Positions 45,101-48,100 of a DNA stretch of 64,000 nt are shown piece by piece. How positions within the stretch are numbered: the stretch's first letter is position 1; each line of letters begins with the position of its first letter. The position numbers are program-made. This DNA is from Escherichia coli O127:H6 str. E2348/69 (lineage in GTDB: Bacteria > Pseudomonadota > Gammaproteobacteria > Enterobacterales > Enterobacteriaceae), in the NCBI RefSeq assembly GCF_000026545.1, contig NC_011601.1. One strand, 5' to 3'.

Positions 45101-48100
45101 GCCGTAAACTCCCGGTTCCTGATAGTCCAGGTCTGCGCCCCACCACCGACCGCGTACGCGAAACGTTGTTTAACTGGCTGGCTCCGGTCATTGTTGACGC
45201 CCAATGTCTGGATTGCTTCGCCGGGAGCGGCGCGCTGGGGCTGGAAGCGTTATCGCGCTACGCTGCGGGGGCCATGTTGATTGAGATGGATCGTGCGGTT
45301 TCTCAGCAGTTAATTAAGAATCTGGCGACACTAAAAGCAGGCAATGCACGCGTGGTGAACAGCAACGCGATGTCATTCCTGGCGCAAAAAGGCACACCGC
45401 ATAATATCGTGTTTGTCGATCCACCGTTCCGCCGTGGCTTGTTAGAAGAGACGATAAATTTACTGGAAGATAACGGCTGGCTGGCTGACGAAGCCCTGAT
45501 TTATGTCGAAAGCGAAGTCGAAAACGGTCTGCCCACTGTTCCGGCAAACTGGTCATTACATCGGGAAAAAGTGGCGGGTCAGGTGGCTTATCGGCTGTAT
45601 CAACGCGAAGCACAAGGAGAAAGTGATGCTGATTAATATTGGTCGTTTGTTAATGCTCTGTGTTTGGGGATTTTTAATCCTCAACCTGGTGCATCCCTTC
45701 CCACGCCCGCTGAATATTTTCGTTAACGTGGCGCTGATTTTTACCGTGCTGATGCATGGTATGCAGCTGGCGCTATTGAAATCCACTTTACCGAAAGATG
45801 GCCCGCAGATGACCACCGCCGAAAAGGTGCGGATTTTCCTTTTCGGCGTGTTTGAACTGCTGGTCTGGCAGAAGAAATTTAAAGTTAAAAAATAACCTTA
45901 TTGTTCGCCTACAAAGCTGACAAAGCGCGTTCCTTTATAGCTCAGCGTACCTTTATCACCCACTGTCAGGGCGTGGTACTGCTGGGCGTCGAGGCGAAAC
46001 GTCTGCTCCATTCCTCCGCTTTGCGGTTTGAAGCTTGCCTCATAGCGCATACTGGTGCCTGCCGGAGTCACTTCCTGCTGGCGCGAACGGCGATCGTTAA
46101 TCGGTTTTTCCCGCTTGTTGCTCACCACCACCAGCTTTTGCTGTAGCGGTGCCATATCATTATCAGCTTTTTCCCGTCGTTGTTGCATAAAACGAAACGA
46201 TGCGGCGACGATGATTAAGCCAATGATAACAATAAAGAAAAGAGGTGGTTTACTCATCTTTATCCCTCATCGGAAAATGCGGAAATAAGCATACCCTGCC
46301 AGTTATGGTGTTGTCATCCGTCCACCCTCGCCACTAAACTGGAAGCAAGACCGTAGGCATTCCGCTTACGAAAAAATAACGAATTCAAGGAACTAAGATG
46401 CTTTGGTCGTTTATCGCTGTCTGTCTTTCCGCATGGCTATCTGTGGATGCATCGTATCGTGGGCCAACCTGGCAACGCTGGGTGTTTAAACCGTTAACCC
46501 TTCTTCTCCTGCTGTTGCTGGCCTGGCAAGCGCCGATGTTCGACGCCATTAGCTATCTGGTGCTGGCGGGGCTGTGTGCCTCACTGCTGGGCGATGCGCT
46601 AACCCTGTTGCCACGTCAACGTCTGATGTACGCCATCGGCGCGTTTTTCCTCTCGCACCTGCTGTACACCATCTATTTCGCCAGTCAGATGACGCTCTCT
46701 TTCTTCTGGCCTCTGCCGTTGGTGCTGCTGGTTCTGGGCGCGCTGTTACTGGCGATTATCTGGACGCGTCTGGAAGAGTATCGTTGGCCTATCTGCACGT
46801 TTATCGGCATGACGCTGGTGATGGTGTGGCTGGCAGGTGAACTGTGGTTCTTCCGTCCGACCGCTCCGGCGCTCTCTGCGTTTGTCGGCGCTTCGTTGCT
46901 GTTTATCAGTAACTTTGTCTGGCTGGGTAGTCACTATCGCCGACGCTTCCGTGCGGACAACGCGATTGCTGCGGCCTGCTACTTTGCTGGTCACTTCCTC
47001 ATCGTCCGCTCGCTGTATCTCTGATAAAACTTGACTCTGGAGTCGACTCTAGAGTGTATCCTTCGGTTAATGAGAAAAAACTTAACCGGAGGATGCCATG
47101 TCGACTCCTGACAATCACGGCAAGAAAGCCCCTCAATTTGCTGCGTTCAAACCGCTAACTACGGTACAGAACACCAACGACTGTTGCTGCGACGGCGCAT
47201 GTTCCAGCACGCCAACTCTCTCTGAAAACGTCTCCGGCACCCGCTATAGCTGGAAAGTCAGCGGTATGGACTGCGCCGCCTGTGCGCGCAAAGTGGAAAA
47301 TGCCGTGCGCCAGCTTGCAGGCGTGAATCAGGTACAGGTGTTGTTCGCCACCGAAAAACTGGTGGTGGATGCCGACAATGACATACGGGCACAAGTTGAA
47401 TCTGCGGTGCAAAAAGCGGGCTATTCCCTGCGCGATGAACAGGCCTCCGACGAACCACAAGAATCACGCCTGAAAGAGAATCTGCCGCTGATTACGCTTA
47501 TCGTGATGATGGCAATCAGTTGGGGGCTGGAGCAGTTCAATCATCCGTTTGGTCAACTGGCGTTTATCGCGACCACGCTGGTTGGGCTGTACCCAATTGC
47601 TCGTCAGGCATTACGGCTGATCAAATCTGGCAGCTACTTCGCCATTGAAACCTTAATGAGCGTAGCCGCTATTGGTGCGCTGTTTATTGGCGCAACGGCT
47701 GAAGCTGCGATGGTGTTGCTGCTGTTTTTGATTGGCGAACGACTGGAAGGCTGGGCCGCCAGCCGCGCGCGTCAAGGGGTCAGCGCGTTAATGGCGCTGA
47801 AGCCAGAAACCGCCACGCGTCTGCGTAACGGTGAGCGTGAAGAGGTGGCAATAAACAGCCTGCGGCCTGGCGATGTGATTGAAGTTGCGGCAGGTGGGCG
47901 TTTGCCTGCCGACGGTAAACTGCTCTCACCGTTTGCCAGTTTTGATGAAAGCGCCCTGACCGGAGAATCCATTCCTGTGGAGCGCGCGACGGGCGATAAA
48001 GTTCCTGCAGGCGCCACCAGCGTAGACCGTCTGGTAACGCTGGAAGTGCTGTCAGAACCGGGTGCCAGCGCCATTGACCGGATTCTGAAACTGATTGAAG

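What the first reader, a model, noticed from the sequence alone, without database searches (positions are those of the whole stretch)
47030..47060. zntA promoter retains the MerR-type ZntR dyad
A -35 TTGACT followed by the dyad ACTCTGGAGTCGACTCTAGAGT indicates conventional Zn-responsive control of zntA, despite the IS50-like insertion just 3' of the gene.
Basis: partly seen in the sequence, partly recalled or inferred. Interest (0 to 1): 0.2.

Follow-up and report, generated by a model that had tools for sequence, protein, structure and literature searches.

The report
Zinc-pump promoter, one-base operator variant
This is the well-known zinc-sensing promoter of the E. coli zinc-export pump gene zntA, intact in layout but carrying a rare single-letter change at a position of the regulator's binding site that is otherwise almost never altered, so it is ordinary with one small untested twist.

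Summary
Window 47031-47062 holds TTGACT, a 20-bp spacer and TATCCT. The 22-bp ZntR dyad lies at 47034-47055, 36 bp upstream of the zntA ATG. The window matches EPEC strain E2348/69 at 100%.

Base 47050 is T, where K-12 has C, giving ACTCTGGAGTC|GACTCTAGAGT (10 of 11 symmetric pairs, 21/22 to the ZntR consensus).

- **Rarity in E. coli:** the T allele occurs in 7 of 5,426 complete genomes; 5,413 carry the exact K-12 40-mer.
- **Rarity across species:** the position is C in 82 of 83 ZntR-type sites, while the dyad centre and the -10 vary freely.
- **Origin:** it looks like one derived mutation in a small clade. It predates the IS, because relatives have T without the IS.
- **Regulator and pump:** zntR (E28G, S60T) and zntA are intact. 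There is no operator/regulator co-variation.
- **The IS:** it is IS50-like (ISEc13, 49511-51060, 9-bp duplication). It sits 214 bp past the zntA stop and is irrelevant to the promoter.

Zinc control is probably conventional, but its strength is untested.

In passing: a conserved nested hairpin pairs promoter sequences with the zntA ribosome-binding site and start codon. It may silence read-through transcripts.

The parts
46398..47024 (+). yhhN coding sequence; its stop lies 6 bp upstream of the zntA -35 hexamer
   Evidence: ORF list; annotated yhhN in the identical E2348/69 record
47031..47036 (+). -35 hexamer TTGACT of PzntA
   Evidence: Sequence; identical to K-12; PMC1526738 and PMC3431237 give TTGACT as the PzntA -35
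47034..47055 (.). ZntR operator: 22-bp dyad ACTCTGGAGTC|GACTCTAGAGT, centre between 47044 and 47045; 10 of 11 symmetric pairs; 21/22 to the consensus
   Evidence: (I3); consensus from PMC1526738
47050..47050 (.). Variant base: T, where K-12 and nearly all relatives have C. It is position +6 of the -10-proximal half-site and turns the core CTCCA into CTCTA
   Evidence: Alignment with K-12. The T 40-mer is in 7/5,426 genomes; the C 40-mer is exact in 5,413. C in 82/83 cross-species sites
47057..47062 (+). -10 hexamer TATCCT; the spacer to the -35 is 20 bp (47037-47056)
   Evidence: Direct count; TTGACt-(20)-TATccT in PMC1526738 supplement
47069..47097 (+). Inferred 5' UTR. The transcription start is placed about 7 nt after the -10; this is inferred, not measured here. 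The Shine-Dalgarno (SD) sequence GGAGG is at 47088-47092
   Evidence: Inference from hexamer position; sequence
47098..49296 (+). zntA, Zn/Cd/Pb P-type ATPase, 732 aa, full length
   Evidence: 721/732 identical to K-12 ZntA with no gaps; annotation
47060..47092 (+). Leader inverted repeat. CCTTCGGTTAA (47060-47070) overlaps the -10 and the discriminator. It pairs with TTAACCGGAGG (47082-47092), which contains the SD
   Evidence: I1; RNA fold; 89% of cells paired across 52 Enterobacteriaceae, with compensatory changes
47100..47111 (+). Copy of the operator centre plus right half (GTCGACTCCTGA) at codons 1-5 of zntA; complementary to the operator left half at 47036-47047
   Evidence: I2; 86% of cells paired across 52 species (helix 1)
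49320..49460 (.). REP/BIME-like repeats in the zntA-tusA spacer; absent from K-12
   Evidence: Repeat families D1 and I1; K-12 alignment stops at the zntA stop and resumes at 51061
49511..51060 (+). IS50-like insertion sequence (annotated ISEc13, IS4 family), 1,550 bp. Transposase ORF 49676-51049. Terminal repeat CTGTCTCTT / AAGAGACAG. 9-bp target duplication CGCTCCTCT at 49502-49510 and 51061-51069
   Evidence: Empty-site comparison with A25, DCE7 and 2022H047; D8 and I13; Tn5 transposase homology; Pfam; annotation

Best explanation
This is PzntA, the sigma-70 promoter of the zinc/cadmium/lead efflux ATPase gene zntA. It is controlled by the MerR-family regulator ZntR.

A ZntR dimer binds the 22-bp dyad that fills the over-long 20-bp spacer. 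Without zinc the -35 and -10 are out of phase and the promoter is weak or slightly repressed. Zn(II)-ZntR untwists and kinks the spacer so that RNA polymerase can use both hexamers. This mechanism is established for K-12 PzntA and for CueR, BmrR and MerR; it is inferred here by near-identity.

In this window (the EPEC E2348/69 lineage) the promoter is intact except for one derived C->T transition at 47050. That base lies in the conserved core of the -10-proximal half-site. Most likely ZntR still binds and zinc induction still works, perhaps with somewhat lower affinity at that half-site. The change behaves as a tolerated lineage marker.

The IS50-like element 214 bp beyond the stop codon plays no part in promoter control.
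For: - **Identity to the characterised promoter:** there is 1 mismatch in the 73-bp intergenic region.
- **Geometry:** the -35, the -10, the 20-bp spacer and the dyad register are exactly as published.
- **Specificity:** this is the only consensus-like site in 64 kb, with 0 expected by chance.
- **Pump and regulator:** zntA is full length. zntR is present and intact in the source genome, 139/141 identical to K-12.
- **The T allele has persisted:** it occurs in at least 4 independent isolates (UK human, Mexican monkey, Chinese pig, Japanese human). These differ from the window by 0.3-0.6% over 8.5 kb, so it is not strongly deleterious.
- **One derived event:** these 7 genomes are exactly the 7 best matches to window 44900-49500. 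The next-best genomes (99.4%) carry C.
- **Imperfect dyads can work:** the PbrR operator is an imperfect dyad and is functional (PMC3431237).
- **Buffering:** activated PzntA output is reported to be robust to ZntR copy number (PMC9189660), which would buffer a modest loss of affinity.
Against: - **The changed base is strongly constrained:** it is C in 5,413/5,426 E. coli genomes and in 82/83 ZntR-type sites across many genera, while the two central bases and the -10 vary freely.
- **It looks like a specificity position:** other MerR-type operators in the same frame differ at exactly these positions, and do so symmetrically. This suggests they are read by the recognition helix.
- **No direct data:** no binding or induction measurements exist for this allele. 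No ZntR-DNA structure exists; the only entry, 1q08, lacks the DNA-binding domain.
- **A second rare change:** E2348/69 ZntR carries E28G next to the DNA-binding wing.
Confidence: 0.78

Rival explanations
1. Operator-down allele. The C->T change in the conserved CTCCA core substantially weakens ZntR binding at the -10-proximal half-site. zntA in the E2348/69 clade would then be poorly inducible, and these strains would be more zinc- and cadmium-sensitive than typical E. coli.
For: The position is nearly invariant within E. coli and across 83 sites. It lies about 5.5 bp from the dyad centre, where the MerR-family recognition helices enter the major groove (review PMC9909328; the geometry is my inference). 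Symmetric co-variation of these positions between different MerR-type operators points the same way.
Against: The allele has persisted in diverged isolates from four hosts and countries while zntA and zntR stayed intact. One half-site and all the spacing are unchanged. Imperfect dyads function in relatives. Activated output is robust to ZntR level.
Confidence: 0.12
2. Adaptive retuning. The substitution shifts the set-point of zinc efflux, for example through less apo-ZntR repression or a changed induction threshold. In E2348/69 it may act together with the rare ZntR E28G change.
For: E2348/69 combines a rare operator allele (7 genomes) with a rare zntR haplotype carrying E28G (10 genomes). 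Residue 28 is acidic in the E. coli, Salmonella and Yersinia ZntR sequences shown. Zinc is relevant to EPEC biology (PMC3438133).
Against: There is no co-variation. A25 has the T operator with a ZntR identical to K-12. Seven genomes have the E28G haplotype with the canonical C operator. The clade is tiny, with no sign of spread. A single C->T transition is the commonest neutral mutation type.
Confidence: 0.08
3. The T is a sequencing or assembly error in the source record.
For: None found.
Against: The same base appears in three independent E2348/69 assemblies and in four other genomes.
Confidence: 0.01

Closest known systems
E. coli K-12 PzntA / ZntR operator (Brocklehurst 1999 and Outten 1999, as cited in PMC1526738 and PMC3431237)
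   Same: Same locus and the same -35 TTGACT, -10 TATCCT, 20-bp spacer and dyad position. 72 of 73 intergenic bases are identical.
   Different: C->T at 47050 breaks the perfect 11+11 palindrome (CTCCA -> CTCTA in the right half). The allele is found in only 7 of 5,426 complete E. coli genomes.
MerR/PmerT (Tn501, Tn21), CueR/PcopA and BmrR: MerR-family 'activation by distortion' promoters
   Same: The operator dyad sits inside an over-long 19-20 bp spacer and overlaps the -35. The activator remodels the spacer DNA (PMC9909328; PMC8169799).
   Different: ZntR uses a 20-bp rather than a 19-bp spacer and a different half-site sequence. No ZntR-DNA structure exists.
PbrR/PpbrA of Cupriavidus metallidurans
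   Same: A MerR-type promoter with -35 TTGACT whose natural operator is an imperfect dyad, yet it is bound and metal-induced (PMC3431237).
   Different: Different regulator, 19-bp spacer and different half-sites.
IS50 (Tn5) / IS4-family element ISEc13, for the 3' insertion
   Same: Full-length homology to Tn5 transposase (E 6e-84). Pfam Tnp_DNA_bind and DDE_Tnp_1 above their cut-offs, with Dimer_Tnp_Tn5 just below its cut-off (24.1 vs 26.7 bits). 9-bp target duplication. The right end reads CTGTCTCTTGATCAGATCT, which from memory is the IS50 inside end; the left end resembles the outside end.
   Different: 1,550 bp rather than 1,534 bp (the IS50 length is from memory). The transposase is homologous to Tn5 transposase but clearly diverged from it (alignment). 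Annotated as ISEc13.
CT-rich anti-Shine-Dalgarno insulators in sigma-54 promoters (Levy et al., bioRxiv 10.1101/086108), for the side observation
   Same: A CT-rich motif inside the promoter, about 25 nt upstream of the SD, can pair with the SD only in transcripts that read through from upstream.
   Different: Here the promoter is a sigma-70 MerR-type promoter. The pairing is an 11-14 bp helix nested inside a second helix that covers the start codon. No expression data exist.

Membership tests
MerR-type metal-responsive promoter: PzntA/ZntR operator | Sigma-70 -35 and -10 hexamers separated by an over-long 19-20 bp spacer | tested here: met
   TTGACT 47031-47036 and TATCCT 47057-47062; spacer 20 bp by direct count; 20 bp published for ZntR. 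One paper counts 19 (PMC9189660), presumably using a different hexamer choice.
MerR-type metal-responsive promoter: PzntA/ZntR operator | Dyad-symmetric operator inside the spacer, overlapping the -35 | tested here: met
   Dyad 47034-47055; 10 of 11 pairs symmetric.
MerR-type metal-responsive promoter: PzntA/ZntR operator | Match to the ZntR consensus ACTCTGGAGTCGACTCCAGAGT | tested here: met
   21/22; the only match with up to 3 mismatches in the window; 0.00 expected.
MerR-type metal-responsive promoter: PzntA/ZntR operator | Conserved core TGGAG / CTCCA in both half-sites | tested here: not met
   The right half is CTCTA (47047-47051). The core is intact on both sides in 81 of 83 cross-species sites and in 5,413/5,426 E. 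coli genomes. This lowers certainty about binding strength, not about identity.
MerR-type metal-responsive promoter: PzntA/ZntR operator | Located directly upstream of the orthologous zntA gene | tested here: met
   The -10 ends 36 bp before the zntA ATG. Gene order ftsYEX-rsmD-yhhLMN-zntA-tusA-yhhQ matches K-12.
MerR-type metal-responsive promoter: PzntA/ZntR operator | Cognate regulator gene zntR present and intact | tested here: met
   zntR is not in the window. In the 100%-identical source genome E2348/69 it encodes 141 aa, 139/141 identical to K-12 (E28G, S60T), with the metal-binding cysteines unchanged.
MerR-type metal-responsive promoter: PzntA/ZntR operator | ZntR binding and Zn/Cd/Pb-dependent activation of transcription | not testable with these tools
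   Needs EMSA or footprinting and reporter assays. No published data were found for this allele or for E2348/69.
IS50-like (IS4 family) insertion sequence | DDE transposase homologous to Tn5/IS50 transposase | tested here: met
   E 6.3e-84 over residues 6-453 against Tn5 transposase. Pfam Tnp_DNA_bind and DDE_Tnp_1 above cut-off; Dimer_Tnp_Tn5 just below.
IS50-like (IS4 family) insertion sequence | Terminal inverted repeats and a 9-bp target-site duplication flanking an otherwise empty site | tested here: met
   CTGTCTCTT / AAGAGACAG at 49511-49519 and 51052-51060; CGCTCCTCT duplicated at 49502-49510 and 51061-51069. The empty site is seen in A25, DCE7 and 2022H047.
Promoter-encoded anti-SD insulator (side observation) | CT-rich anti-SD motif within about 25 nt upstream of the SD, able to pair with it | tested here: met
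   CCTTC at 47060-47064 pairs with GGAGG at 47088-47092. The helix is 89% paired in 52 species, and the SD/anti-SD pair changes CG->UA in two of them.
Promoter-encoded anti-SD insulator (side observation) | Reduced translation of the downstream gene from read-through transcripts, relieved by mutating the motif | not testable with these tools
   Requires reporter experiments. The transcription start that would exclude the 5' arm from the native mRNA is only inferred.

The most novel reading that the evidence does not exclude
The PzntA core promoter may double as the 5' half of a conserved nested RNA hairpin. The operator left half (47036-47047) pairs with zntA codons 1-5 (47100-47111). The -10/discriminator CCTTCGGTTAA (47060-47070) pairs with the SD region (47082-47092).

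Both 5' arms lie upstream of the inferred transcription start. The structure would therefore form only in transcripts reading through from yhhN, and would bury the ribosome-binding site and the AUG. ZntA would then be made only from ZntR-activated starts. This would be a sigma-70/MerR-type counterpart of the anti-SD insulators described for sigma-54 promoters.

A second, separate novel reading is that the 47050 T allele measurably changes zinc efflux in the prototype EPEC strain.
Probability: 0.3. Interest if true: 0.5.

Novelty: already known. Interest (0 to 1): 0.2.

Why it matters
As it stands, this confirms that a textbook metal-sensing promoter is present and correctly annotated, which is routine.

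The small added value concerns E2348/69, the strain on which much EPEC work, including zinc work, is done. It carries a very rare change at an otherwise invariant base of the ZntR operator, together with a rare ZntR E28G substitution. If either alters zinc efflux, zinc phenotypes measured in this strain may not generalise. The allele would also be a ready-made natural probe of which operator bases ZntR reads, given that no ZntR-DNA structure exists.

The leader hairpin seen in passing, if real, would explain why sequence between the -10 and the SD of zntA is conserved in structure across Enterobacteriaceae.

Tried and rejected
1. **A new promoter created by the T.** TAGAGT appears on both strands at 47046-47055. 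No usable -35 lies at 15-19 bp: the real -35 is only 13 bp away, and candidates on the minus strand match at most 2 of 6 (direct reading). The promoter scan found nothing here. Rejected.
2. **Dcm deamination hotspot.** The K-12 context TCCAGA is not CCWGG. Rejected.
3. **Compensatory ZntR change.** A25 has the T operator with a K-12-identical ZntR. The E28G haplotype also occurs with the C operator. Rejected as co-evolution.
4. **The IS influencing or co-occurring with the promoter allele.** Relatives carry T without the IS. Rejected.
5. **A Zur site at PzntA.** PMC11618457 reports no clear Zur site at zntA.
6. **A known RNA family for the leader.** Rfam gave only sub-threshold miRNA-like noise.
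7. **Direct evidence of zntA induction in E2348/69.** The only paper combining E2348, zntA and zinc did its Zur and ZntR experiments in K-12-derived MC4100 mutants and did not measure zntA expression. A broader search gave nothing.
8. **Operator mutagenesis data for PzntA.** None found in the biosensor or titration papers.
9. **The primary paper.** Outten 1999 is not held, so the transcription start is inferred rather than cited.
10. **L068 (Omnitrophota MAG).** It shows the same TGGA/TCTA asymmetry, but it sits in front of a different MerR-like operon. It is not an orthologous precedent.
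Full report
**What is at the coordinates.** Window 47030-47062 reads cttgactctggagtcgactctagagtgtatcct.
- TTGACT occupies 47031-47036 and TATCCT occupies 47057-47062.
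- The stretch between them (47037-47056) is 20 bp by direct count.
- The 22-bp dyad ACTCTGGAGTC|GACTCTAGAGT spans 47034-47055 and overlaps the last three bases of the -35.
- The zntA ATG is at 47098 (732-aa ORF 47098-49296). The upstream gene yhhN ends at 47024.

[quoted passage not shown] PMC3431237 likewise gives 20 bp for ZntR. Searching the window with that consensus and up to 3 mismatches returns only this site, with 1 mismatch and 0.00 expected by chance.

**Where the window comes from.** A 201-bp query around the site matches E. coli E2348/69 (EPEC O127:H6) at 100%, and 12 kb of the window is identical to that record. Gene order (ftsE, ftsY, rsmD, yhhL, yhhM, yhhN, zntA, then tusA, yhhQ, dcrB) matches K-12.

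Aligned with K-12 MG1655, the 73-bp yhhN-zntA intergenic region differs at exactly one base. Window 47050 is T where K-12 has C. K-12 has a perfect 11+11 palindrome. In the window, G47039 faces T47050, so the -10-proximal half-site core reads CTCTA instead of CTCCA.

I used 40-mer queries centred on the variant, so that megablast's 28-base word requirement separates the two alleles.
- The T allele is present in 7 of 5,426 complete E. coli genomes. These are three E2348/69 or O127:H6 assemblies, A25 (monkey, Mexico), DCE7 (pig, China) and 2022H047/048 (human, Japan).
- The K-12 40-mer is exact in 5,413 genomes.
- The flanking coding DNA varies by 1-5% in most genomes, while the promoter is essentially monomorphic.

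**Cross-species constraint.** I scanned one genome per species with a pattern that left the half-site cores and the dyad centre free (CTTGACTCNNNNGTNNACNNNNGAGTNTA). Of the hits, 83 are ZntR-type sites.
- Position +6 is C in 82 sites, and its partner at -6 is G in all 83.
- The two central bases occur in several combinations, and the -10 hexamer varies (TATCCT, TATGCT, TAAGAT, TAGGAT and others).
- The single other T is in an Omnitrophota MAG, in front of a different MerR-like operon.
- Hits from cyanobacteria and actinobacteria share the same frame but have other cores, mostly symmetric (TCCA/TGGA, TCAC/GTGA, TCTA/TAGA).

This pattern suggests that these positions carry regulator specificity. 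It fits the family picture in which the recognition helix reads the major groove (review PMC9909328). Placing the changed base in that groove, about 5.5 bp from the dyad centre, is my inference. No ZntR-DNA structure exists; the only PDB entry, 1q08, covers residues 43-141.

**History of the allele.** The seven T-allele genomes are exactly the seven best matches to window 44900-49500 (100% and 99.7%). The next genomes, at 99.4%, carry C. This fits a single derived mutation in a small clade. A25, DCE7 and 2022H047 carry T but have no IS between zntA and tusA, so the promoter change predates the IS. These genomes differ from the window by 24-36 substitutions over 8.5 kb and come from different hosts and continents. 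The allele has therefore persisted, which argues against a strongly harmful effect.

**Regulator and pump.**
- ZntA is full length and 721/732 identical to K-12.
- zntR lies outside the window. In E2348/69 it is intact and 139/141 identical to K-12, with substitutions E28G and S60T.
- S60T matches the Salmonella and Yersinia sequences. Residue 28 is acidic in the E. coli, Salmonella and Yersinia sequences shown, so E28G is unusual.
- There is no operator/regulator co-variation. A25 (T operator) has a ZntR identical to K-12. The E2348-type zntR 40-mer occurs in ten genomes, seven of which carry the canonical operator.

**Mechanism.** The following is established for K-12 and the MerR family, not shown here. 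ZntR binds the dyad. Apo-ZntR leaves the promoter weak or slightly repressed. Zn-ZntR distorts the spacer and activates transcription.

By near-identity the same applies to the window. Three points suggest a modest loss of half-site affinity would be buffered:
- One half-site and all the spacing are untouched.
- Imperfect dyads work in relatives such as PbrR.
- Activated PzntA output is reported to be robust to ZntR copy number.

I put 0.78 on conventional zinc control with at most a quantitative shift. I put 0.12 on a substantial operator-down effect and 0.08 on adaptive retuning. No paper I could find measured zntA induction in E2348/69 or mutated the PzntA operator.

**The 3' insertion.** Comparison with the empty site in A25, DCE7 and 2022H047 places a 1,550-bp element at 49511-51060. 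It is flanked by a 9-bp duplication, CGCTCCTCT (D8), and has terminal repeats CTGTCTCTT / AAGAGACAG (I13). Its 457-aa ORF is a full-length homologue of Tn5 transposase (E 6e-84; Pfam) and is annotated ISEc13. The right end reads CTGTCTCTTGATCAGATCT, which from memory is the IS50 inside end. 'IS50-like' is therefore correct. The element sits 214 bp past the zntA stop, beside REP-like repeats that K-12 lacks. It has no bearing on the promoter.

**Seen in passing: a nested hairpin.**
- **In the window.** CCTTCGGTTAA (47060-47070) overlaps the -10 and the discriminator, and is complementary to TTAACCGGAGG (47082-47092), which contains the Shine-Dalgarno (SD) sequence. The operator left half (47036-47047) is complementary to zntA codons 1-5 (47100-47111), which are an 11/12 copy of the K-12 operator's centre and right half.
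- **Folding.** As RNA, 47030-47115 folds to -37.1 kcal/mol (z = -6.8) with the SD and the AUG buried. An mRNA starting at the inferred start, 47069, is unstructured (z = 0.1).
- **Conservation.** In 52 Enterobacteriaceae species, 87.8% of cells pair, against 29-48% when the partners are slid. Compensatory changes occur at three pairs, including an SD/anti-SD CG->UA switch in two species.
- **Erwiniaceae.** They have unrelated GC-rich leader hairpins at the same place that do not cover the SD.
- **Databases and precedent.** Nothing matches in Rfam. A precedent exists in sigma-54 promoters, where CT-rich anti-SD motifs insulate genes from read-through (bioRxiv 10.1101/086108).
- **What it rests on.** The idea that zntA is translated only from ZntR-activated starts depends on a transcription start I could not verify, and no expression data exist. 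I give it about 0.3.

**Verdict.** This is a known promoter, correctly recognised. The claim that it 'retains' the dyad holds for 21 of 22 bases. The exception is a rare, derived change at a nearly invariant operator position, with unknown and probably small effect. Novelty: already known. Interest: low (0.2).

Noticed in passing
window 47036-47111: Nested inverted repeats. The operator left half pairs with zntA codons 1-5, and the -10/discriminator CCTTCGGTTAA pairs with the SD region. Read-through RNA would fold at -37.1 kcal/mol (z -6.8) and bury the SD and AUG; the mRNA from the inferred start is unstructured. The helices are 88% paired in 52 Enterobacteriaceae, with compensatory changes. 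This may insulate zntA against read-through from yhhN.
   Followed up: partly
window 47100-47111; loci L006, L023, L028 and others: The first codons of zntA (ATG TCG ACT CCW GA) reproduce the operator centre plus right half (GTCGACTCCAGA), up to 13 nt exactly in Kluyvera and Pseudocitrobacter. The synonymous positions are conserved. Whether this matters at the DNA level (an extra half-site) or the RNA level is unknown.
   Followed up: partly
L128 1772-2197 (E2348/69 zntR, outside the window): ZntR of the source strain differs from K-12 by E28G (next to the DNA-binding wing; acidic in the E. coli, Salmonella and Yersinia sequences seen) and by S60T. The E28G haplotype was found in only 10 of 5,426 genomes. 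It does not track the operator T allele.
   Followed up: partly
L012, L030, L041, L057, L073 (Pantoea and Erwinia zntA leaders): Erwiniaceae have strong GC-rich hairpins between the -10 and the SD of zntA. Their sequences are unrelated to the Enterobacteriaceae hairpin, and the SD is left free. They may be 5'-terminal stabiliser stem-loops.
   Followed up: partly
window 49297-49510: The zntA-tusA spacer holds REP/BIME-like repeats (35-nt units at 49325 and 49426, plus an inverted copy). They replace 38 bp of K-12 sequence. The IS inserted right beside them.
   Followed up: partly
window 49431-49808: This 125-aa ORF crosses the chromosome/IS junction at 49511 and has no Pfam match. It is almost certainly not a gene.
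   Followed up: yes
L127 45879-47252 (E2348/69, near aaeR): A second ISEc13 copy encodes an identical transposase protein (WP_000244358.1), about 147 kb from zntA in the same genome.
   Followed up: no
loci L009, L011, L026, L031, L040, L053 and others: Cyanobacterial and actinobacterial genomes carry promoters in the same frame (CTTGACTC-core-GT-NN-AC-core-GAGT-N-TA) but with other, mostly symmetric cores (CCAG/CTGG, CACG/CGTG, CTAG/CTAG). These are presumably operators of other MerR-family regulators.
   Followed up: no
L068 2607-3124 (Omnitrophota MAG): A site with the same asymmetric core as the window (TGGAGT..ACTCTAGAGT) sits directly upstream of a MerR-family gene, followed by an ORF whose sequence suggests a metal-binding (HMA-like) domain by eye; no domain search was run.
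   Followed up: partly
literature (PMC9189660 versus PMC1526738 and PMC3431237): Papers disagree on the PzntA spacer length (19 or 20 bp). With the hexamers TTGACT and TATCCT, the count in the sequence is 20.
   Followed up: yes
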